A stretch of DNA of 64,000 nt, from the NCBI GenBank assembly GCA_016715425.1, contig JADKAC010000002.1, positions 377,351 to 441,350 on the forward strand. Direction: 5' to 3'. The notes under the pieces were generated by a model. The model did not search any database. It saw nothing but the letters and a program-made list of their open reading frames with translations, and was not told where the DNA came from. Both the position numbers and the translations under genes were made by a program. The stretch's first letter is position 1. Every line of letters begins with the position of its first letter. Below, in pieces: positions 6,786-44,184 of this stretch. This stretch comes from Bacteroidota bacterium (GTDB lineage: Bacteria > Bacteroidota > Bacteroidia > Chitinophagales > BACL12).

Positions 6786-6794
6786 GGATTGAAG

Positions 6795-6868
6795 TGGGCC
6801 CACCTGGGATCGAACCAGGGACCACCTGATTATGAGTCAGGTGCTCTAACCGTCTGAGCTATAGGCCC
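6795..6868 (-). tRNA. tRNA with CAU anticodon (Met by anticodon; acceptor stem suggests tRNA-Ile2/lysidine type)
   Basis: Hand-folded cloverleaf: acceptor GGGCCTA/TGGGCCC, D arm GCTC..GAGC, anticodon stem CCTGA/TCAGG with loop CTCATAA, T arm CCTGG-TTCGATC-CCAGG, discriminator A. CCA is not encoded. Confidence 0.9.
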
Positions 6869-21714: not shown

Positions 21715-21775
21715 AAGAATCTTATTTTACTTTATTTAGCTTGTACTTTTAAGGTAAATTGATTGGATGAGAATA

Positions 21776-21818
21776 AAATAAAAAGGTTGAAACAATGTAA
21801 AATTGATTCAACCTTTTT
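21776..21818. terminator. intrinsic terminator downstream of the TonB-C gene
   Basis: Stem GGTTGAA / TTCAACC flanked by an A-run and a T-run. Confidence 0.6.
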
Positions 21819-21853
21819 AACTCTGACCAAGAAAATTGTAATCAGAAAAACAA

Positions 21854-22273
21854 TTACTTCAATTTAAAATAAATAGGTACTACATATTCCACTTTCACTT
21901 TCTTGCCATCTTGTTCACCTGGAGTCCATTGCGGCATTGCATTTACAACACGTAATGCTTCTGCATTTAATGTTGCCGAAACACCTCGCTTAACAACTGC
22001 ATCTGTAACATTTCCCTTTTCATCAATTACAAAACCGACATACACTTTTCCTTGCTCTCCTTTTTCTTTTGCATCTGCCGGGTATTGAATTGATTCAGAA
22101 AGATATTTCATCATTGCATCATCACCACCTTTGAAAGTGGGCATCACCTCTGCTTGTTTTAATGGCATATCATCGGCGCTTTGCGCTGAAGCTGTTTCTG
22201 AAATAAATGTGAGAGAAAGAATACATAAAAGTGTTGCAACACTTTTTAAAGCTGTGTTTTTAAAATGATTCAT
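21854..22273 (-). CDS. TonB C-terminal domain protein (energy transducer TonB family)
   Basis: Start at MNHFKNTALKS with a signal/anchor segment. C-terminal TonB fold blocks (YPADAKEKGEQGKVYVGFVIDEKGNV, KVKVEYVVPIYFKL). Confidence 0.8.
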   Translation of the reverse strand: MNHFKNTALKSVATLLCILSLTFISETASAQSADDMPLKQAEVMPTFKGGDDAMMKYLSESIQYPADAKEKGEQGKVYVGFVIDEKGNVTDAVVKRGVSATLNAEALRVVNAMPQWTPGEQDGKKVKVEYVVPIYFKLK

Positions 22274-22367
22274 AATGTTTGGTTTTAGTGTGAAATAATA
22301 TCCATCAAATGCGACGGCTGTTGGTTGATGCAAACCATCGGATTATTCCATAAATATATTGTAAAAA

Positions 22368-25300
22368 TTATTGCAACAGAATAAATGCTGACCAATAGTA
22401 AGGGCCATATCGCTTACTCATTGTTTGTTGTGCCAAGCGAAATGCAGAATTCAATTCCATTCCTTTCAATAAATTCCCATAAAAATATTCCATGAACAAA
22501 GCAGTTTCTTTATCACTTACTTTCCACAAACTCATCACTATATTTTCAACTCCGGCTAATTTAAAAGCACGTTGTAAACCGAACACACCTTCATCACTGC
22601 GCACAGTTCCCAAACCTGTTTCACATGCAGATAAAACGGCAAGACGACATTTACTCAAATCCATATAACTCACTTCGGCTGCAGTGAGAATACCATCATT
22701 TAAATCCGCAGGCAATTTTTCTCCTTTCCAACTGCGATTTCCACCTGCAAGCAATAATCCCGAACGATACATTGCATCTGAATTGGAAACTGCGTTGCCG
22801 GGTAATTGATCTACAAAAAATCCATGTGTAGAAATATGCATTATCTCCGGTGCGTTGCCACTAAAATTTTTAAACATATCTTCCGATGCTTTGCTGCCGG
22901 TAAACATTTCTGTTTTGTTTTTACTTGTTTGCAATAACAGATCTATACTTTTCACTTCTTGTAAAGTACCGGGTAAATAATTCCATTCACCACCACGGGT
23001 ATTCACTGCATTTCTGCTATCATTTAATACAAGTAATTCATTTGCATTCTGCAATGTATTTTCAGATTGCATTGCAGCATATAATTTATCATCACTCGAC
23101 ATATAATCCACACCACCAATCATTGCAATTTCACCTGATTTAAATGTATCTGCTTTTTTAATCTTTTCAAGATCAGCCGAATTTCCAATCTGCGAAATAT
23201 TGTAATTAAATCCTGCATAGGTATTAAATGCAATTGGAATTGCAGCAACATTAATTGTATTTATTACACCGGAAACAGTGATATATATATTTCCATTTAC
23301 AGTGAGATATTTTTGTAATGGTTGCCAAAGTAATTGATATAAATGTTGACCATCATAATAAGCTTCTTCCTCATCATATTCAGGAAAACCATATAAACGA
23401 GATGCATAGGCTGCATCTGTTTCATCTTTTCTTTTTGCGATTATTTGAAGTAAAATATCCTCGCTGCAAAGCATTACTAACTCCGGCTCTTGCATAGTTC
23501 CGGTAAGTATCATTGCCGCATACCATTCACCTTGATGTTGCTTATCAGAATAACTATATATCTGTAAAAATTCGATTACCGCATCTGTTGCTTGTAATTG
23601 TTTTTTTACATCTGTCCATTTTTCATTTACAACATAACTGATATTGCTACCGCTTTTTAAATTTAATTGTTTTTCATAATTATCTGCTGCAATCTTTAAT
23701 GAATCCACATACGATTTATCGGCATCTGTTTGCGATTCTAATTTCGCAACATATTGTTTTGTATGTAACCATTCGGTGTAAACATTTCTGATTTCCGCAT
23801 CAGGTGATTGTTCAAAATTGCGACGTGCATTGGTGGATGAATACAATAACATTGCACGATTTGCCAATTGATAATTATACATATCTCCTGCAATTCCCGG
23901 CAGTTGAGAATGGGCAAAAACAAAATCATTAAATACATCAAATTGATAGCGGAAAGTAGATAGAAATGCTTCTTGCTCTGCAGCATTCATCACACTAAAA
24001 TTTGTATTCAGTTGTTCCAATTGTAAATCTAAATTCCGCACATATAAATCTCTCGCCAGTTCGGGTTTATTTAATGCATCATAAATACTTGCAAGGCGCC
24101 GATAACTTGCGAGTACTAATGGATCAGTTTCATTATAATTATTTTTCCTGTAATCCAACACTTCTTCTGCAATTGCAAGCGCATCATCATATCTTTCCAT
24201 TCGAATATATAATTCAGAAACATTATCCCGCCATGTTTGATAATTAATATTGAGATCACCCAAATATTTTTCGCTTAATGCCAAAGCGGAAGCATATAAT
24301 TCTTCCGACTCCAAATATTTTTCCTGATCCATTGCAACACCTGCGAGTGCGGCAGTTGCATTTATATAATTGAAAGAGCTGTCGCCTTCTTCTGCTAATG
24401 CAAAATCAAATGCTTGTCTATAATATATTTCTGCCGATTCCATTTTATTCGCACTCTCATAAATGCGACCCATCGCCATAAGCTGCGCATTGAAATTACT
24501 TTTCAATAAATCACCAGTTAGAAAATCAAAAAAAGTATTTGTATTGTTTTGCAATTCACGAGTGCGAAACATAGTAACATCCTCTGCGAGAGGAATTGCT
24601 TGCTGATATCTACCTACTCTTACATAAAAATCTGCGATATCCATCATGCGGTTAAAATAATCTGAACTATCTGATTGCAAATAATTTTTTGATACTGCAA
24701 TTGATTCAAGATATAATTTTTCAGCAGCAGAATAATTTCCCGTTCCTGTATAATAGTTTGCAAGATCACGCACTACGTCCAAATGCAAAACAGTATCCGA
24801 TTGTGCTATTCTGAAATTATCATACACAATTTTATAATCTGCAAGACCATCTTCCACCCTGTTCAAATCAATTTTAGATTTTCCTTTTGCATACAGCACA
24901 TTGTAATCTAATCCTGTTCCTGCAGCCATTTTTTCAACTCTATTTAATGTAGCAAGCGCTTGCTCAGAATTAAAAGTTGCATTTAAATAAGAAGCATATT
25001 CCAATCCGTAATTGGTGCAATCATACATCATGGAGTCAGGCATATTGTCGCAGATATTCAAGATGGTATCATACACTGCAAAACCCTCATCATAATTATC
25101 AATAGTAATTTGCAAACCAGCCATACGGTTTAAATATTCCAATGTAGTTGCTGTAGGTTCACCATGTAATCTGCTGCGATCAATTGCCTTTTGCGAAGCT
25201 TCCAACGCAAGGTCATATTCGCCGTAAGTAGAAAAAATTAAACTGAATAAATGCCATCCATCCGCAGTAGGTTCATCTTTTGTACCGATAGCTTTTATAT

Positions 25301-26249
25301 CAATTGCATACGTTTTTAAAGTCCAGGGTAAACCATTTTCTTTATCGCCATTTAAAAAATATAATTGCGACAAAAATCCTGTTGCAAATCCGTAGAGTAC
25401 ATTTTCTTCACCATAGGTATATCGGAAATATTCCTCCATAATAAATCCTTTTGTAAATGCTTCCTCACTTGCATCACCCAATGCAATCATCATTGCAGTG
25501 GAACCGATCAGATCGTATAAATCAAGAATAGCGTCCTGATAATACATCACACATTTTCCTACTTCACCAGTGGTGTTATAGTATTTTATCACTCCTGTCA
25601 GCATATCATTTTCGTAAGGAAAAACAGAAGTTAACAATCCAGAAGAATCATAATTTTTTGTTATGCCAATGCGCAAATCATTTTCATAGGTTGTAGATTT
25701 TTCTATCACACCTGTACTTCTATAAAAATTAAATACGCCATTCTTTTTCCCCAGAGTAACAGAACCACTTCGCATTACATTTCCATTCTCATAATACTCT
25801 GTATAATTGCCATCAGGTAAATCGTCGGTATAATTACATCTCCATTGTATGTTTCCGGAAGGATAAAATTGTTCGGCCAATCCTTGCATTAATCCATCCT
25901 GATAATTGTAGATATATTTTTTATTGTTGTTTTTGTAATACAAAATTGCAATACCATTCAGCGTATCTGGAAACATAGATTTGTATTGTGCTGAATAGAC
26001 GAGATTATTATTCTCAATGGAATATTCATTTACAAATCCGACAGGTATATTTTTTTTAAATTTTGCAGTGTTATACCAATCTGCATTTACAGCATCTTTT
26101 AATAAATTATTGTCAACGTCATAAAAGAAAATCCATTTACCAGTGCGCAATCCATTTTTATCTGTTTTATTGGGAGCAGTTAATTGGGTAAATGCGATGG
26201 ATTGTGTTGCAATCAAAAAGAAAAAAAAGAATACTGTTTTTATCTGCAT
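22368..26249 (-). CDS. secreted MORN-variant repeat / TPR / CHAT-domain protein (1293 aa)
   Basis: Signal peptide MQIKTVFFFFFLIATQSIAFTQ. About 8 YwqK/MORN-variant repeats in the first ~240 aa, then a long TPR-like helical region. C-terminal CHAT domain has His in MHISTHGFF (codon 22824-22826) and Cys in LSACETG (22623-22625). Confidence 0.85.
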   Translation of the reverse strand: MQIKTVFFFFFLIATQSIAFTQLTAPNKTDKNGLRTGKWIFFYDVDNNLLKDAVNADWYNTAKFKKNIPVGFVNEYSIENNNLVYSAQYKSMFPDTLNGIAILYYKNNNKKYIYNYQDGLMQGLAEQFYPSGNIQWRCNYTDDLPDGNYTEYYENGNVMRSGSVTLGKKNGVFNFYRSTGVIEKSTTYENDLRIGITKNYDSSGLLTSVFPYENDMLTGVIKYYNTTGEVGKCVMYYQDAILDLYDLIGSTAMMIALGDASEEAFTKGFIMEEYFRYTYGEENVLYGFATGFLSQLYFLNGDKENGLPWTLKTYAIDIKAIGTKDEPTADGWHLFSLIFSTYGEYDLALEASQKAIDRSRLHGEPTATTLEYLNRMAGLQITIDNYDEGFAVYDTILNICDNMPDSMMYDCTNYGLEYASYLNATFNSEQALATLNRVEKMAAGTGLDYNVLYAKGKSKIDLNRVEDGLADYKIVYDNFRIAQSDTVLHLDVVRDLANYYTGTGNYSAAEKLYLESIAVSKNYLQSDSSDYFNRMMDIADFYVRVGRYQQAIPLAEDVTMFRTRELQNNTNTFFDFLTGDLLKSNFNAQLMAMGRIYESANKMESAEIYYRQAFDFALAEEGDSSFNYINATAALAGVAMDQEKYLESEELYASALALSEKYLGDLNINYQTWRDNVSELYIRMERYDDALAIAEEVLDYRKNNYNETDPLVLASYRRLASIYDALNKPELARDLYVRNLDLQLEQLNTNFSVMNAAEQEAFLSTFRYQFDVFNDFVFAHSQLPGIAGDMYNYQLANRAMLLYSSTNARRNFEQSPDAEIRNVYTEWLHTKQYVAKLESQTDADKSYVDSLKIAADNYEKQLNLKSGSNISYVVNEKWTDVKKQLQATDAVIEFLQIYSYSDKQHQGEWYAAMILTGTMQEPELVMLCSEDILLQIIAKRKDETDAAYASRLYGFPEYDEEEAYYDGQHLYQLLWQPLQKYLTVNGNIYITVSGVINTINVAAIPIAFNTYAGFNYNISQIGNSADLEKIKKADTFKSGEIAMIGGVDYMSSDDKLYAAMQSENTLQNANELLVLNDSRNAVNTRGGEWNYLPGTLQEVKSIDLLLQTSKNKTEMFTGSKASEDMFKNFSGNAPEIMHISTHGFFVDQLPGNAVSNSDAMYRSGLLLAGGNRSWKGEKLPADLNDGILTAAEVSYMDLSKCRLAVLSACETGLGTVRSDEGVFGLQRAFKLAGVENIVMSLWKVSDKETALFMEYFYGNLLKGMELNSAFRLAQQTMSKRYGPYYWSAFILLQ

Positions 26250-26290
26250 AGTGTGTAGATGCTATTGTAAAGAAATTCGTTACAAACATG

Positions 26291-26327
26291 AAAAAAAAAT
26301 CCCGCAACAATTGAATTGAAGCGGGAT
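26291..26327 (-). terminator. intrinsic terminator after cysN
   Basis: Stem ATCCCGC / GCGGGAT followed on the minus strand by a 9-T run. Confidence 0.75.
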
Positions 26328-26350
26328 TGAAATAAGCATAAATATGTTAT

Positions 26351-27649
26351 TTATTTAATAATCATACCGGCAGCTACCGTTTCATTTGTTCCTTCATCAA
26401 TAAAAATGATAGAACCTGTGATACGGTTTTGTCTGTATTCATCATAGAACAAAGGCACTGTGGTGCGGATACGAATTCGTCCGATTTCATTAAGACCAAA
26501 TGTTTTTACATCTGGATCTCTATGCAGGGTATTTACATCCACTTTATAAAGTATTTCTTTTACAATACATCTTGCATCTCTGGTAGTATGTTTAATTGCA
26601 TACTTACCGTTCAACAGCAATTGTTTTTTGTCGCTCATCCAACAAATCATCACATCTATGTCCTGGCCAGTTTCCGGAATATTATTTTCACGCACCAACA
26701 TATCACCACGGCTGATATCAATTTCATCTTCCAATAAAATAGTAACGCTTTGAGGAGGATGTGCGAATTCTAATTCGCCATCAATAGTAGTAATGGCTTT
26801 TATTTTTGAAGTTAATCCGGAGGGCAAATGCATCACTAAATCTCCCGGTTTAAAAACACCACCTGACACTCGACCTGCATATCCACGATAATCATGATAT
26901 TCATCGCTCATTGGGCGCACAACATATTGCACAGGAAAACGGCAATCAATCATATTATGATCACCACCGATATGCACTGTTTCCAAAGTATATAATAAGG
27001 TAGGTCCCTGATACCAATCCATCTTTGTGCTGCGGTCAACCACGTTATCGCCTTTCAATGCACTGATAGGAATAAAGCGCACATCCTGCACATCTAATTT
27101 TGATGAAAAGTTTTTGAATTGATCTACCACTTTATCATAAGCCTCTTGCTTAAAATCAACAAGATCCATTTTATTAATACAAATAACAATATGTGGTATC
27201 TGTAACAGCGAAGCAATAAATGCATGGCGATGTGTTTGCTCAACAACACCATGACGTGCATCCACTAAAATGATGGCGAGGTTCGCAGTACTAGCACCGG
27301 TAACCATATTTCTTGTGTATTGAATATGGCCGGGTGTATCAGCAATAATAAATTTGCGTTTTGGTGTAGCAAAATATCTGTATGCCACATCAATAGTAAT
27401 TCCCTGCTCACGTTCTGCACGTAAACCATCAGTAAGCAAAGCAAGATTTACATAATCTTCACCTCTTTGTAATGATGATTTTTCAATAGCTTCCAACTGA
27501 TCTTGAAAAATTGATTTCGAATCATATAACATTCTACCTATCAATGTAGATTTTCCATCGTCAACACTTCCTGCAGTGGTAAACCGCAGTAATTCCATAT
27601 TGAGATAACCGTTGTGATCGAATTTTCCGTCTTCTAATAAATGCTCCAT
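26351..27649 (-). CDS. cysN: sulfate adenylyltransferase subunit 1 (GTPase)
   Basis: G-domain motifs GSVDDGKST, DTPGH and NKMD, plus EF-Tu-like domains. No fused APS kinase domain. Confidence 0.93.
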   Translation of the reverse strand: MEHLLEDGKFDHNGYLNMELLRFTTAGSVDDGKSTLIGRMLYDSKSIFQDQLEAIEKSSLQRGEDYVNLALLTDGLRAEREQGITIDVAYRYFATPKRKFIIADTPGHIQYTRNMVTGASTANLAIILVDARHGVVEQTHRHAFIASLLQIPHIVICINKMDLVDFKQEAYDKVVDQFKNFSSKLDVQDVRFIPISALKGDNVVDRSTKMDWYQGPTLLYTLETVHIGGDHNMIDCRFPVQYVVRPMSDEYHDYRGYAGRVSGGVFKPGDLVMHLPSGLTSKIKAITTIDGELEFAHPPQSVTILLEDEIDISRGDMLVRENNIPETGQDIDVMICWMSDKKQLLLNGKYAIKHTTRDARCIVKEILYKVDVNTLHRDPDVKTFGLNEIGRIRIRTTVPLFYDEYRQNRITGSIIFIDEGTNETVAAGMIIK

Positions 27650-27698
27650 TATATTTTCTTCTGTTCTGTTTGCGATAAATAAATTGATGATTTTTTGA

Positions 27699-28604
27699 TC
27701 AGAAATATCCTTGTTTTTTTCTGTCTTCCATAGATGTTTCGGAACGTTTGTCGTCCGAGCGATTTCCTCTTTCAGTAATACGTGTTGTAGCTACTTCGTA
27801 AATAATTTTTTCTACCGTATCTGCATCACTTGCAACTGCGCCTGTAATAGGAAGATCACCACAAGTACGGAAACGCACCTGACGAACTTCAGGCTTTTCA
27901 TTGCCACGCAATTTCACCCATTTTGGATGGGTAGATATATATGTTCCATCACGTTCAATTACTTCCCGCATATGAGAAAAATATAATGTAGGTAATGGAA
28001 TATTTTCCTGAAGAATATATTGCCATACATCCATCTCAGTCCAGTTACTGATTGGGAATACACGGAAGTGTTCACCAAGATGTTTTTTCCCGTTGAAGAT
28101 GTTCCATAATTCCGGACGTTGATTTTTTGGATCCCATTGACCGAACTCATCACGATGACTGAAGAATCTTTCTTTGGCTCTGGCTTTTTCTTCATCTCTT
28201 CTTGCGCCACCCATACATGCATCAAACTTGTTGTTCTCTATTGTTTCCAAAAGAGTTACCGTTTGCAAAGCATTACGGGAAGCATTTATTCCTTGCTCTT
28301 CCACAGCGGTACCTTTAGAAATAGAATCTTCTACCTCGCCAACGATTAATCGGGCACCGGTTTCTTTCACCAACCAATCACGGTATTCAATTGTCTCCGG
28401 AAAATTATGACCCGTATCAATATGAACTAATGGAAATGGAATTTTCGCAGGCCAAAAAGCCTTACGTGCCAGATAAACCATCAGGATAGAATCTTTTCCA
28501 CCCGAGAATAATAAGGCAGGGTTCTGAAATTGTGCCGCCACTTCCCGCATAATAAAAATGCTCTCGGCTTCCAGTTCTTTTAAATGTGTTAAACTATAAG
28601 ACAT
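27699..28604 (-). CDS. cysD: sulfate adenylyltransferase subunit 2
   Basis: PAPS-reductase-fold PP-loop FSGGKDS. CysD-length 301 aa. Immediately upstream of cysN. Confidence 0.93.
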   Translation of the reverse strand: MSYSLTHLKELEAESIFIMREVAAQFQNPALLFSGGKDSILMVYLARKAFWPAKIPFPLVHIDTGHNFPETIEYRDWLVKETGARLIVGEVEDSISKGTAVEEQGINASRNALQTVTLLETIENNKFDACMGGARRDEEKARAKERFFSHRDEFGQWDPKNQRPELWNIFNGKKHLGEHFRVFPISNWTEMDVWQYILQENIPLPTLYFSHMREVIERDGTYISTHPKWVKLRGNEKPEVRQVRFRTCGDLPITGAVASDADTVEKIIYEVATTRITERGNRSDDKRSETSMEDRKKQGYF

Positions 28605-28610
28605 GATATT

Positions 28611-29222
28611 TTAAACTTGATATTTAATAATAGGTAATATAAAATTGTATAATTGATCTACGCTTTCTTCAATACTTAATTTATCGGTGGGGATTTCCAT
28701 TGCAGGATTCTCAGGTGCTTCAAAGGGAGAAGTGATACCGGTAAAATCAGGAATTTCGCCACGTCTTGCTTTTGCATATAATCCTTTCACATCTCTTGCT
28801 TCACATACTTCTAACGGCGCATTGATATATATTTCTAAAAAATTCTCTTCGCCAATTATTTGCTTTGCCATGGTGCGAATTTCATTTGTAGGACTTACAA
28901 AACTGTTCATGGTAATGATACCGCAATTCAGAAATAATTTGCTGACTTCTGCAATCCGGCGGATATTTTCAATACGGTCTGCATCACTGAAACTTAAATT
29001 TTTATTTATTCCACTGCGAATATTATCGCCATCCAATAACATGGTGAGAAAACTATCAGTATGTAGTTTCTTTTCGAGCGCTTCTGCAATTGTGCTTTTT
29101 CCGGAGCCTGATAAACCCGTTAGCCATAGCACACGGGCATTCTGTTTCAGAAAGGCCTCTTTATCGGCCCGCTGCAATAAGCGGTGGAATATTGGGTGAA
29201 TGTTATCCTGCACTGTAGTCAT
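28611..29222 (-). CDS. cysC: adenylylsulfate (APS) kinase
   Basis: P-loop GLSGSGKSTIA and the LDGDNIR motif. Start set at ATG 29222 because a TAACTTTG box lies inside the longer ORF extension. Confidence 0.92.
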   Translation of the reverse strand: MTTVQDNIHPIFHRLLQRADKEAFLKQNARVLWLTGLSGSGKSTIAEALEKKLHTDSFLTMLLDGDNIRSGINKNLSFSDADRIENIRRIAEVSKLFLNCGIITMNSFVSPTNEIRTMAKQIIGEENFLEIYINAPLEVCEARDVKGLYAKARRGEIPDFTGITSPFEAPENPAMEIPTDKLSIEESVDQLYNFILPIIKYQV

Positions 29223-29251
29223 TTTCTGCAATCTCAGGCCAAACGGCGGCG

Positions 29252-29259
29252 CAAAGTTA
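29252..29259 (-). promoter_or_regulatory. candidate -7 box (TAACTTTG) for the cysCDN operon
   Basis: Exact TAnnTTTG on the minus strand, 29 nt upstream of the ATG at 29222. Confidence 0.45.
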
Positions 29260-29337
29260 GGCAATTACAATGGTTTTAAGGATGAATGATTTAGAAAAAT
29301 GGTTGTCTGATTGATGTGATTAATGTGCGGATGTGCA

Positions 29338-43506: not shown

Positions 43507-44184
43507 ATGCATTTTCCCCTGTTTACATTTTTGTTAATAATAAATCTTTCGCTTGCCGCACAAGTGGAATCCACGCAAATCAATAAATTGCCAGGCAATA
43601 ATTTTTTACAGTCGGATTACAGATATCAAAACGGAGAAGAATTGCCGGATACTTATAAAAAAGTTTATACCACTTTTGAAAATGGAGATTCAGTAAAATA
43701 TCTTGAAAAATATCGCTACGATAAAATATGGAGTGTAACCAGATATTTAATCGAGAATGATAAAAATGTATTAAGCGGCTGGCAATGTTTTTTTAATATG
43801 GATGGCACCTTGGAATATGAATTGTTTTGTGAAAATGGAAAAAAGAATTGCAAAAAAATGAGGCGTTATGCATGGTATCCCGGTGGACAATTATTGGCAA
43901 TCGGCAATTATTATAAAAGTAAACCGGAAGGTTCGTATTACTATTATTATTCTAACGGACAGATGCGTCAGCATGCGTTTTATGAAAAAGGAAAATTTAT
44001 GGAAGTACTCGCTTATTATGATCAGGATGGAAATGCAGTAGATGCAGGAACAATTTGTAATGGCGAAGGTATGGCAAATGTGTATTCCGTAGATGGAGTA
44101 TTAATTCAGGTAAAATCTTTTTCTAATGGTAAAATACGTAAAACTGTAACGCTTGGTACTCCGGAAAATCAAAACATACATTGA
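43507..44184 (+). CDS. secreted MORN-variant (YwqK-like) repeat protein
   Basis: Signal peptide. Repeats of the form Y..NG.....Y..G (YYYSNGQMRQHAFYEKGKFMEVLAYYDQDGN). Confidence 0.65.
   Translation: MHFPLFTFLLIINLSLAAQVESTQINKLPGNNFLQSDYRYQNGEELPDTYKKVYTTFENGDSVKYLEKYRYDKIWSVTRYLIENDKNVLSGWQCFFNMDGTLEYELFCENGKKNCKKMRRYAWYPGGQLLAIGNYYKSKPEGSYYYYYSNGQMRQHAFYEKGKFMEVLAYYDQDGNAVDAGTICNGEGMANVYSVDGVLIQVKSFSNGKIRKTVTLGTPENQNIH

What the first reader, a model, noticed from the sequence alone, without database searches (positions are those of the whole stretch)
22368..26249. 1293-aa secreted MORN-variant / TPR / CHAT protease-like protein, followed by a TonB-C protein
Seen: a cleavable-looking signal peptide, about 8 YwqK/MORN-variant repeats, roughly 700 aa of TPR-like helical repeats, then a CHAT domain. 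The caspase-like dyad is intact (His in MHISTHGFF at 22824-22826, Cys in LSACETG at 22623-22625). A TonB C-terminal-domain gene starts 94 bp downstream on the same strand, with no terminator between them. Established: CHAT domains are caspase-fold proteases. They are usually discussed in intracellular conflict, signalling and CRISPR-associated contexts. Inference: the signal peptide places this one outside the cytoplasm, an atypical setting. The TPR array may be a ligand sensor gating the protease. A second MORN-variant protein lies at 43507-44184.
Basis: partly seen in the sequence, partly recalled or inferred. Interest (0 to 1): 0.55.

Follow-up and report, generated by a model that had tools for sequence, protein, structure and literature searches.

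The report
Exported MORN–TPR–CHAT caspase-like protease gene
This is a real 1293-residue caspase-like (CHAT) protease gene from a Chitinophagales bacterium that is probably exported to the periplasm, but export turns out to be the norm for its large, uncharacterised Bacteroidota clade, so it is an ordinary member of a poorly studied family.

Summary
ORF 22368-26249(-) encodes a 1293-aa protein with four parts: a signal peptide, eight MORN-type beta-hairpins, about 640 aa of TPR/helical solenoid, and a C-terminal CHAT domain (Pfam 180 bits). His1142 and Cys1209 are invariant. A 139-aa exported TonB_C protein follows 94 nt downstream, and intrinsic terminators bracket the pair.

Export is not atypical. 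At least 76% of the 113 nearest full-length CHAT relatives, and nearly all relatives in named Bacteroidota genomes, carry signal peptides ending in AQ/SQ. A periplasmic TPR-CHAT, Myxococcus DdvA, has a solved structure.

TonB_C linkage is variable even within this lineage: adjacent in three orthologous loci, nearby in two, absent in two. A tighter synteny, cysC-cysD-cysN upstream, went unnoticed, but a conserved terminator separates it from the CHAT gene. There is no defence-system context.

Both proteins are already in GenBank as "CHAT domain-containing protein" and "energy transducer TonB". Most likely this is a Sec-exported periplasmic cysteine protease whose MORN/TPR scaffold controls the active site. 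Its substrate is unknown. Verdict: new member of a known kind, modest interest.

The parts
26351..29264 (-). cysC (28611-29264), cysD (27699-28604) and cysN (26351-27649): a sulfate-activation block directly upstream on the same strand. It is context, not part of the transcription unit.
   Evidence: Pfam APS_kinase 206 bits, PAPS_reduct 145 bits, GTP_EFTU 155 bits. The same block lies upstream of every MORN-TPR-CHAT orthologue (L001-L006), while the outer flanks differ.
26289..26328 (-). Intrinsic-terminator-like hairpin (8-bp G+C-rich stem) followed by U9, just after the cysN stop codon
   Evidence: MFE -15.7 kcal/mol, z -4.37, 0 of 200 shuffles fold as well. An equivalent hairpin plus T-run is present in L001, L003 and L004.
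26257..26284 (-). Conserved promoter-like motif TGTAAC-N16-GCATCT, ending 7 nt before the ATG
   Evidence: Conserved in the window, L001, L003 and L005. Exact matches occur only at this position in the window and in L001, L002, L003 and L005. Its function is not shown.
22368..26249 (-). Gene for the 1293-aa MORN-TPR-CHAT protein (GenBank MBK8680985.1, 'CHAT domain-containing protein')
26187..26249 (-). Signal peptide, aa 1-21 (MQIKTVFFFFFLIATQSIAFT|Q)
   Evidence: Has the positive-end / hydrophobic-core / cleavage-region layout of a signal peptide (max KD10 2.76). Gln22 is invariant in the orthologues. Q-rule: PMC5837995, PMC10653852. The cleavage site is inferred.
25521..26183 (-). MORN-type beta-hairpin repeat domain, aa 23-243 (8 repeats of about 23-24 aa)
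   Evidence: AF2 pLDDT 86.9 with 16 strands. Foldseek hits MORN1 6t69 (E 2e-8) and junctophilin. Pfam MORN_2 falls below its cut-off.
23583..25520 (-). Helical/TPR solenoid, aa 244-889 (TPR supported by HMMs over aa 484-745)
   Evidence: TPR_12 99.4 bits, TPR_10 49.5 bits. Kinesin light chain TPR hits. AF2 shows helices at both ends of the region. The stretch aa 331-744 was not modelled.
22371..23582 (-). CHAT caspase-fold domain, aa 890-1293 (Pfam CHAT covers 967-1291)
   Evidence: Pfam 180 bits. AF2 pLDDT 80.9, pTM 0.84. Foldseek hits Craspase Csx29 (7.6e-12), DdvA (2.5e-10), separase (4e-9) and gingipain RgpB (6e-5).
22824..22826 (-). Codon of catalytic His1142 (in HISTHGFF)
   Evidence: Invariant.
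22623..22625 (-). Codon of catalytic Cys1209 (in LSACETG)
   Evidence: Invariant.
22302..22317 (-). Weak hairpin plus T-rich tail inside the 94-nt spacer (a possible partial attenuator, not a convincing terminator)
   Evidence: 6 pairs, two of them G-U. The whole spacer has z -1.19. Small hairpin plus T-run features sit at similar positions in L001 and L003 (by eye).
21854..22273 (-). Gene for a 139-aa exported TonB_C-domain protein (GenBank 'energy transducer TonB', annotated from the TTG at 22333 as 159 aa)
   Evidence: Pfam TonB_C 74.5 bits and TIGR01352 51.7 bits. Signal peptide ...ETASA|QS. Orthologues are 139 and 137 aa. GenBank name.
21770..21847 (-). Double hairpin plus U-run terminator after the TonB_C gene
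   Evidence: MFE -23.2 kcal/mol, z -5.44. Equivalent terminators in L001 and L003.

Best explanation
The gene encodes a Sec-exported, probably soluble periplasmic, regulated cysteine protease of the TPR-CHAT type.

Proposed steps:
1. Signal peptidase I cleaves before the invariant Gln22. This is inferred from the sequence and the Bacteroidetes Q-rule.
2. The mature protein is elongated. An N-terminal single-layer beta-sheet of eight MORN-type hairpins (modelled) serves as a docking or oligomerisation module. About 640 aa of TPR/helical solenoid acts as a protein-binding scaffold.
3. By analogy with separase, Craspase and DdvA, the scaffold holds the C-terminal CHAT domain in a resting state until a protein ligand binds. 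This step is inferred.
4. The His1142/Cys1209 dyad (shown to be intact and invariant) then makes site-specific cuts in one or a few envelope proteins. The substrate is unknown.

The gene forms its own transcription unit with a small exported TonB_C-domain protein, bracketed by terminators. That protein is a candidate adaptor or substrate in this lineage, but not an obligate partner.

The protein belongs to a very large Bacteroidota clade of signal-peptide-bearing TPR-CHAT proteins. It is not part of a cytoplasmic defence system.
For: Architecture and dyad.

Export: a conserved signal-peptide layout with invariant Gln22. 86 of 113 nearest CHAT relatives pass the signal-peptide heuristic, and 55 of them carry a small-x-small-Q motif. 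CHAT ORFs in named Bacteroidota genomes begin with a signal peptide. Q-rule literature: PMC5837995, PMC10653852.

Periplasmic TPR-CHAT precedent: DdvA (8rot_A) is a Foldseek hit at E 2.5e-10, and its paper describes the periplasmic domain.

Transcription unit: terminators after cysN and after the TonB_C gene, and none of significance between the two genes. The same layout is seen in orthologous loci.

No defence context: no PADLOC hits and housekeeping neighbours.

Conservation is highest in the CHAT domain: 79/73/70/48% identity, against 64/61/58/32% for MORN.
Against: - No dedicated signal-peptide predictor was available, so the export call rests on a hydrophobicity/charge heuristic and the Q-rule. 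An uncleaved signal anchor cannot be excluded.
- Protease activity, substrate and regulation by the TPR region are all inferred by analogy.
- A CHAT-only sequence profile finds no solved CHAT protease even at E<=1. The tie to Craspase, DdvA and separase is therefore fold-level only, with TM-scores of about 0.45.
- The TonB_C partner is absent in two orthologous loci.
- The His-Cys geometry in the model could not be measured, because no coordinates are exposed.
Confidence: 0.6

Rival explanations
1. It is a cytoplasmic conflict or defence effector like Craspase Csx29, CBASS SAVED-CHAT or STAND-associated CHAT proteins, and the hydrophobic N-terminus is incidental.
For: The best structural matches are Craspase TPR-CHAT chains. 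CHAT domains are widely discussed as defence effectors (PMC10907252).
Against: The signal-peptide-like N-terminus with invariant Gln22 is conserved down to 38% identity and across the wider clade. There are no PADLOC matches. No cas, CD-NTase, SAVED, NTPase or ECF sigma genes lie nearby, and the neighbours are cysCDN, GH92, GNAT and an M20 peptidase.
Confidence: 0.05
2. It is an inner-membrane-anchored periplasmic sensor protease. The N-terminal hydrophobic segment is an uncleaved signal anchor, and the protein works like the periplasmic module of the anti-sigma factor DdvA, relaying an envelope signal.
For: DdvA is a structural hit and is periplasmic. The residue at -1 of the putative cleavage site is Thr, which is less favourable than Ala, Ser or Gly.
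Against: Only 4 residues precede the hydrophobic core, so there is no cytoplasmic output domain. The core is about 16 residues, short for a transmembrane helix. Orthologues have canonical A-Q or S-Q cleavage sites. No ECF sigma or anti-sigma domain is present in the protein, and none is in the neighbours examined.
Confidence: 0.15
3. It is a non-catalytic scaffold: a TPR/MORN adaptor whose CHAT domain serves only as a binding module.
For: No activity data exist. DdvA's CHAT has an incomplete active site and is captured in a resting state. The loops next to the catalytic His (aa 1148-1155) and at aa 1068-1084 are low-confidence in the model.
Against: His1142, Cys1209 and the surrounding motifs (THGFF, LSACETG, GVFGLQRAF) are invariant or nearly so in 12-20 divergent homologues. 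CHAT is the most conserved region of the protein.
Confidence: 0.1
4. It is a protease released across the outer membrane, either extracellular or surface-attached, with a nutritional or antagonistic role analogous to the gingipains.
For: Gingipain RgpB, an extracellular caspase-fold protease of Bacteroidota, is a fold hit (1cvr, E 6e-5). T9SS cargo genes lie near some orthologues.
Against: There is no Por_Secre_tail/CTD hit, and the conserved C-terminus is the CHAT domain itself (...PYYWSAFILLQ). There is no lipobox cysteine. Long TPR solenoids are typical of regulated, substrate-specific proteases rather than bulk degradative ones.
Confidence: 0.07

Closest known systems
DdvA periplasmic TPR-CHAT domain (Myxococcus xanthus anti-sigma factor; PDB 8rot; PMC11506125)
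   Same: A TPR solenoid followed by a C-terminal CHAT domain with a His-Cys dyad, located in the periplasm. It is a Foldseek hit at E 2.5e-10. The proposed logic, in which TPR-mediated sensing switches on a resting CHAT protease, is the same.
   Different: DdvA has a cytoplasmic zinc-binding anti-sigma domain, a transmembrane helix and an ECF sigma partner, and it sits in a CBASS/CRISPR island. It also lacks a three-helix motif at its active site. The window protein instead has a cleavable-looking signal peptide, an N-terminal MORN domain, no output domain and housekeeping neighbours. The model shows three helices (aa 1246-1286) after the catalytic Cys. Whether these correspond to the motif DdvA lacks was not tested.
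Craspase protease Csx29 (TPR-CHAT of type III-E CRISPR-Cas; e.g. PDB 8d9f, 8eey)
   Same: It is the best structural match (E 7.6e-12). Both have a TPR region followed by CHAT, with a His-Cys dyad.
   Different: Csx29 is cytoplasmic, binds Cas7-11 (gRAMP) and is activated by target RNA. No cas genes are present here, there is no PADLOC hit, and there is no detectable sequence-profile similarity.
HetF (Anabaena CHAT protease; PMC9457339)
   Same: It is the founding CHAT family member, a Cys-dependent protease with a specific substrate (PatU3), and it also has TPRs.
   Different: HetF has the opposite topology: cytoplasmic CHAT, a transmembrane segment, then periplasmic TPRs. It has no MORN domain.
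Separase (eukaryotic; e.g. PDB 9hma, 5u1t)
   Same: A helical solenoid followed by a caspase-fold protease domain. Foldseek E 4e-9.
   Different: Separase is eukaryotic and nuclear/cytoplasmic, is regulated by securin, and is much larger. The resemblance is at fold level only (about 10% identity).
Exported Bacteroidota proteins named 'CHAT domain-containing (tetratricopeptide repeat) protein' by NCBI
   Same: This is the clade the protein belongs to: signal peptide, then TPR, then C-terminal CHAT, with 36-49% identity in the CHAT domain. The exact protein is already deposited as MBK8680985.1.
   Different: Most members lack the eight-repeat MORN domain. The MORN-TPR-CHAT form of about 1290 aa was found only in a narrow set of Chitinophagales MAGs (P0002-P0007, L005, L006; P0045, P0047 and P0049 judged from their N-termini only) plus one 2029-aa relative, P0009.

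Membership tests
CHAT domain (Pfam PF12770; caspase-hemoglobinase fold peptidases) | Match to the CHAT profile above the curated threshold | tested here: met
   180 bits against a cut-off of 24, aa 967-1291, profile positions 4-286 of 289.
CHAT domain (Pfam PF12770; caspase-hemoglobinase fold peptidases) | Caspase-type alpha/beta fold | tested here: met
   AF2 pLDDT 80.9, pTM 0.84. Foldseek probability 1.00 to Csx29, DdvA, separase and RgpB. The TM-score of about 0.45 is limited by the multi-domain query.
CHAT domain (Pfam PF12770; caspase-hemoglobinase fold peptidases) | Conserved His (His-Gly) and Cys catalytic dyad | tested here: met
   H1142-G and C1209 are invariant in alignments A1, A2 and A5. 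The 3D distance could not be measured.
CHAT domain (Pfam PF12770; caspase-hemoglobinase fold peptidases) | Proteolytic activity | not testable with these tools
   Needs biochemistry.
Craspase / type III-E Csx29 | Genomic and physical association with Cas7-11 (gRAMP), a CRISPR array, and Csx30/Csx31/RpoE | tested here: not met
   No PADLOC hit. Neighbours are cysCDN, GH92, GNAT, an M20 peptidase and TonB_C. Rfam finds no CRISPR-related RNA in the window.
DdvA-type transmembrane anti-sigma factor | N-terminal cytoplasmic zinc-binding anti-sigma domain plus a transmembrane helix, with an adjacent ECF sigma gene | tested here: not met
   Only 4 residues precede the hydrophobic segment. There is no anti-sigma domain in the Pfam scan. 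No ECF sigma is among the neighbours examined.
DdvA-type transmembrane anti-sigma factor | Periplasmic TPR-CHAT module | tested here: inconclusive
   The architecture and fold match. Periplasmic location is predicted from the signal peptide only.
Sec/SPI-exported Bacteroidota protein (Q-rule) | A signal peptide with a positively charged start, a hydrophobic core and a cleavage region, with Gln at +1 | tested here: met
   K4, a hydrophobic core over aa 5-20, then A-F-T|Q22. Gln22 is invariant in the orthologues. The rule is described in PMC5837995 and PMC10653852. This is a heuristic call; SignalP was not available.
MORN repeat proteins (Pfam MORN_2 / YwqK-like) | MORN_2 profile match above the gathering score | tested here: not met
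   18.5 bits against 29.6. Orthologues carry only 'faint' precomputed MORN_2 hits.
MORN repeat proteins (Pfam MORN_2 / YwqK-like) | Tandem beta-hairpins of about 23 aa forming an elongated single-layer antiparallel sheet | tested here: met
   16 strands at pLDDT above 90 over most of aa 35-237. Foldseek hits MORN1 6t69, 6t68 and 6t4d (E 2e-8 to 9e-7) and junctophilin.
TonB energy transducer (for the downstream gene) | C-terminal TonB_C domain | tested here: met
   Pfam 74.5 bits and TIGR01352 51.7 bits, both above their cut-offs.
TonB energy transducer (for the downstream gene) | N-terminal membrane anchor that couples to ExbB/ExbD, plus a long Pro-rich periplasmic spacer | tested here: not met
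   The protein is 139 aa with a cleavable-looking signal peptide (...TASA|QS) and a short non-Pro-rich linker. Full-length TonB models score far below their cut-offs (e.g. 22.5 bits against 418). It is a TonB_C-domain protein, not a bona fide TonB, despite its GenBank name.
T9SS cargo | C-terminal Por_Secre_tail / CTD | tested here: not met
   No such Pfam hit. The C-terminus is the conserved end of the CHAT domain.

The most novel reading that the evidence does not exclude
Soluble periplasmic TPR-CHAT proteins may form a pervasive, unrecognised envelope-surveillance protease system in Bacteroidota. In this reading the variable MORN/TPR modules recognise foreign or damaged proteins in the periplasm, and the CHAT domain then cleaves TonB_C-domain proteins. 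These could be the free ones, or the sensor domains of BlaR1/M56-TonB_C transducers like the one next to the L006 orthologue. The cleavage would trigger a transcriptional or transport response. The tandem paralogue arrays in rumen Bacteroidales would reflect diversification of the recognition modules.
Probability: 0.08. Interest if true: 0.65.

Novelty: new member of a known kind. Interest (0 to 1): 0.3.

Why it matters
CHAT proteases are currently studied almost entirely as cytoplasmic effectors (Craspase, CBASS, separase, HetF). The only characterised periplasmic example is DdvA, from 2024. This locus is one ordinary representative of a very large, functionally untouched Bacteroidota clade in which the caspase-like domain is exported. 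The CHAT query matched 7,976 50%-identity clusters at E<=1e-30, and the nearest of these mostly carry signal peptides.

The value of the finding is as a pointer to that clade, and as a correction of the idea that export is unusual for CHAT proteins. The individual gene is not a discovery. It is already annotated in GenBank, has no defence-system context and has no identifiable substrate.

Tried and rejected
1. Profile of 20 TPR-CHAT homologues (A2) against PDB sequences. The output was swamped by TPR proteins, and no CHAT hit appeared among the 60 hits shown.
2. CHAT-only profile (A5) against PDB sequences. No hits even at E<=1, so no residue-level sequence alignment to Csx29, DdvA or separase could be obtained.
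4. Model coordinates are not exposed, so the His-Cys distance and the presence of the three-helix motif could not be measured.
5. PADLOC scan of both proteins. No hits, so the defence-system reading was rejected.
6. Sigma-70 promoter scan. It found 41 sites against 36.7 expected. This is uninformative, and the consensus does not suit Bacteroidota anyway.
7. A regulon search with TGTAAC-N16-GCATCT. There is no second convincing site in the window or in unrelated loci.
8. TonB_C as a general partner of exported TPR-CHAT proteins. Rejected: tblastn finds it only in the Chitinophagales MORN lineage, and not in all members. Neighbour clustering of the other loci yields only further TPR(-CHAT) paralogues.
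9. cysCDN co-transcription with the CHAT gene. Considered unlikely because of a conserved terminator.
10. Literature searches for functional work on exported Bacteroidota CHAT proteins. These returned only incidental mentions.
11. Rfam and tRNA scans. Nothing lies near the locus.

Full report
**1. What is there**

The minus-strand ORF 22368..26249 encodes 1293 aa. Its parts, from N- to C-terminus:

| Region | Residues | Evidence |
|---|---|---|
| Signal peptide | 1-21 | hydrophobic core, invariant Gln22 |
| MORN-type repeats | 23-243 | AF2 model and MORN1 fold hits |
| Helical/TPR solenoid | 244-889 | TPR_12 99.4 bits, TPR_10 49.5 bits over aa 484-745; AF2 helices at both ends |
| CHAT domain | 890-1293 | Pfam CHAT 180 bits, cut-off 24, over aa 967-1291 |

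Pfam MORN_2 reaches only 18.5 bits, below its 29.6 cut-off. An AlphaFold2 model of aa 23-330, built on seven orthologues (pLDDT 86.9), nevertheless shows 16 beta-strands, i.e. eight hairpins, followed by helices from about aa 244. Its best PDB matches are MORN1 crystal structures (6t69, E 2e-8; also 6t68 and 6t4d) and junctophilin.

A second model, of aa 745-1293 (pLDDT 80.9, pTM 0.84), has a helical linker and then an alpha/beta domain starting near aa 890. Foldseek matches it to several proteins:
- Craspase TPR-CHAT/Csx29 (8d9f_A, E 7.6e-12)
- the anti-sigma factor DdvA (8rot_A, E 2.5e-10)
- separase (9hma, E 4e-9)
- gingipain RgpB (1cvr, E 6e-5)
- SAVED-CHAT (8tl0)

The helical region totals about 640 aa. 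Residues 331-744 were not modelled.

Both are invariant in five full-length orthologues, in 20 divergent TPR-CHAT homologues and in 12 CHAT-only relatives.

**2. Export**

The N-terminus is MQIK, then a 16-residue hydrophobic core, then A-F-T|Q22. Orthologues at 71, 67, 62 and 38% identity have equivalent N-termini ending in A-Q or S-Q, and Gln22 is invariant. In Bacteroidetes most signal peptidase I substrates expose Gln at +1, the "Q-rule" (PMC5837995, PMC10653852).

With only four residues ahead of a short hydrophobic core, there is no room for a cytoplasmic domain, and the bulk of the protein must lie outside the inner membrane. There is no lipobox and no T9SS C-terminal domain, since the conserved C-terminus is the CHAT domain itself. 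The most likely location is therefore the periplasm. No dedicated signal-peptide predictor was available, so cleavage remains an inference.

**3. Is export atypical? No**

An exhaustive HMMER search with the CHAT region alone found 85,751 50%-identity clusters at E<=1e-3 and 7,976 at E<=1e-30.
- Of the 113 best representatives that are at least 800 aa and start with Met, 86 (76%) pass a strict signal-peptide heuristic. Of these, 55 have a small-x-small-Q motif. Several that fail, such as P0045, P0046, P0138 and P0171, plainly have mis-called upstream starts.
- By my reading of the N-termini listed, about 30 of the 36 more distant homologues from the word-indexed search have signal-peptide-like or lipoprotein-like N-termini.
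- A scan of species-representative genomes returned 46 loci. Nearly all are Bacteroidota MAGs (Chitinophagales, Lacibacter, Saprospiraceae, Lewinellaceae, rumen Bacteroidales, Aquirufa), with single Ignavibacteria and Crocosphaera loci and two unclassified MAGs. Almost every CHAT ORF in them starts with a signal peptide ending in AQ or SQ.

The literature already holds one solved periplasmic TPR-CHAT, the Myxococcus anti-sigma factor DdvA. Its authors note that "little is known" about TPR-CHAT proteins (PMC11506125). HetF, the family's namesake, has the opposite topology: cytoplasmic CHAT and periplasmic TPRs (PMC9457339). My literature searches found no functional study of the exported Bacteroidota clade.

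**4. Neighbourhood and transcription**

The downstream gene (ATG at 22273, 139 aa) has a TonB_C domain (74.5 bits; TIGR01352 51.7 bits) and its own signal peptide...TASA|QS. It lacks the membrane anchor and Pro-rich spacer of a true TonB.

The spacer folds no better than shuffled sequence (z -1.2) and contains only a weak 6-bp hairpin. Significant hairpin plus U-run terminators follow cysN (-15.7 kcal/mol, z -4.4) and the TonB_C gene (-23.2 kcal/mol, z -5.4). The simple scanner had missed both because their loops exceed 8 nt. The same layout recurs in orthologous loci. The CHAT and TonB_C genes thus look like a two-gene unit.

TonB_C is not a fixed partner, however:

| Loci | TonB_C downstream of the CHAT gene |
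|---|---|
| L001/L002, L003 (67% and 62% orthologues) | directly adjacent |
| L006 (41%) | follows a BlaI repressor as the C-terminal domain of a BlaR1/M56 protein, then again as a small exported protein |
| L007 (partial orthologue, about 45% identity) | a two-domain TonB_C protein lies beyond a convergent gene |
| L005 (71%), L004 (38%) | absent |

It is also absent from the distant MORN-TPR-CHAT relative P0009 and from the roughly 40 other Bacteroidota TPR-CHAT loci. In those loci the only recurrent neighbour is another TPR(-CHAT) paralogue.

It is present in all six complete orthologous loci while the outer flanks differ. The conserved terminator argues against co-transcription with the CHAT gene.

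Between that terminator and the ATG lies a motif, TGTAAC-N16-GCATCT. It is conserved in the window, L001-L003 and L005, and is found nowhere else in the sequences held. It is promoter-like and ends 7 nt before the start codon. Its function is untested.

Neither protein matches a PADLOC defence model, and the neighbours are housekeeping genes.

**5. Mechanism**

Shown here: the domain architecture, the fold, the invariant dyad, the conserved export signal, and the terminators that bracket the unit.

Inferred:
- The protein is exported through Sec and cleaved before Gln22.
- The MORN sheet and TPR solenoid bind partner proteins and keep the CHAT domain resting until a ligand arrives, as in separase, Craspase and DdvA.
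- The protease then makes specific cuts in envelope proteins.
- The TonB_C protein is a candidate adaptor or substrate in part of the lineage.

Identity to the window protein rises modestly from the MORN region (64/61/58/32%) to the CHAT domain (79/73/70/48%) across P0002, P0003, P0004 and P0007. This fits a conserved catalytic module paired with more variable recognition modules.

**6. Comparison and novelty**

The protein is a bona fide CHAT-domain protein of the TPR-CHAT kind. It is not a Craspase component and not a DdvA-type anti-sigma factor, because defining features of both were tested and not met. The downstream gene is a TonB_C-domain protein, not a TonB.

Both proteins are already in GenBank: MBK8680985.1, "CHAT domain-containing protein [Chitinophagales bacterium]", and MBK8680984.1, "energy transducer TonB".

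The N-terminal MORN addition is confined to a narrow set of Chitinophagales MAGs plus one larger relative.

Verdict: a new member of a known kind. Interest is modest (0.3), mainly as a pointer to a large exported caspase-like protease clade that nobody has characterised.

Noticed in passing
window 26351-29264 (-); L001-L006: cysC-cysD-cysN (sulfate activation to PAPS) lies immediately upstream of the MORN-TPR-CHAT gene in every complete orthologous locus, including those at 38% and 41% identity. The genes beyond the block differ on both sides. A conserved hairpin plus U-run terminator separates cysN from the CHAT gene, so this is synteny without obvious co-transcription. No functional link is apparent.
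   Followed up: partly
window 26257-26284 (-); L001 7966-7993, L002 2222-2249, L003 7965-7992, L005 5966-5993: A conserved TGTAAC-N16-GCATCT element ends about 7 nt before the CHAT start codon. It does not fit the Bacteroidota sigma-A consensus (TTTG ... TAnnTTTG) and resembles an alternative/ECF-type promoter driving a near-leaderless mRNA. It is absent in the two most divergent loci, L004 and L006.
   Followed up: partly
L006 7763-9862: Directly downstream of the 41%-identity MORN-TPR-CHAT orthologue lie three genes: a BlaI/Penicillinase_R repressor (106 bits), a BlaR1 peptidase_M56 protein whose C-terminal sensor position is occupied by a TonB_C domain, and a small exported TonB_C protein. 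The window's TonB_C protein is about 39-42% identical to that BlaR1 C-terminal domain.
   Followed up: partly
L012, L015-L017, L022, L025, L027-L032 (rumen and gut Bacteroidales, Saprospiraceae): Exported TPR(-CHAT) genes often sit next to another large exported TPR(-CHAT) paralogue (15 loci). Single MAGs carry 2-3 separate loci, for example RGIG7873 with L014, L024 and L026. The family is expanded and arrayed in tandem in some lineages.
   Followed up: no
window 22302-22317 (-); L001 and L003 CHAT-TonB_C spacers: A small hairpin followed by a T-rich run sits about 30-45 nt upstream of the TonB_C start in three loci. It could be a partial attenuator that sets the ratio of the two products. It is not statistically distinguishable from shuffled sequence in the window.
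   Followed up: partly
window 21854-22333 (-): GenBank annotates the TonB_C gene from the upstream TTG (159 aa). Orthologues (139 and 137 aa) and the position of the signal peptide favour the ATG at 22273 (139 aa).
   Followed up: yes
window 43507-44184 (+): The 225-aa 'second MORN-variant' protein also has a signal peptide (...LSLAA|Q). Its domain hits are all below threshold (MORN_2 17.6 bits, SH3_3 17 bits), and it is only 25% identical over 95 aa to the MORN region of the CHAT protein.
   Followed up: partly
window 22368-26249 (-), aa 1068-1084 and 1148-1155: Two loops in the CHAT domain are modelled with pLDDT below 50. One directly follows the catalytic His-Gly-Phe-Phe strand. The other precedes the invariant RGGxWxxLPGT motif. 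They are candidate flexible regulatory or substrate-binding loops.
   Followed up: no
window 6794-6868 (-): A single tRNA-Met (CAT) is the only Rfam/ARAGORN hit in the 64-kb window.
   Followed up: no
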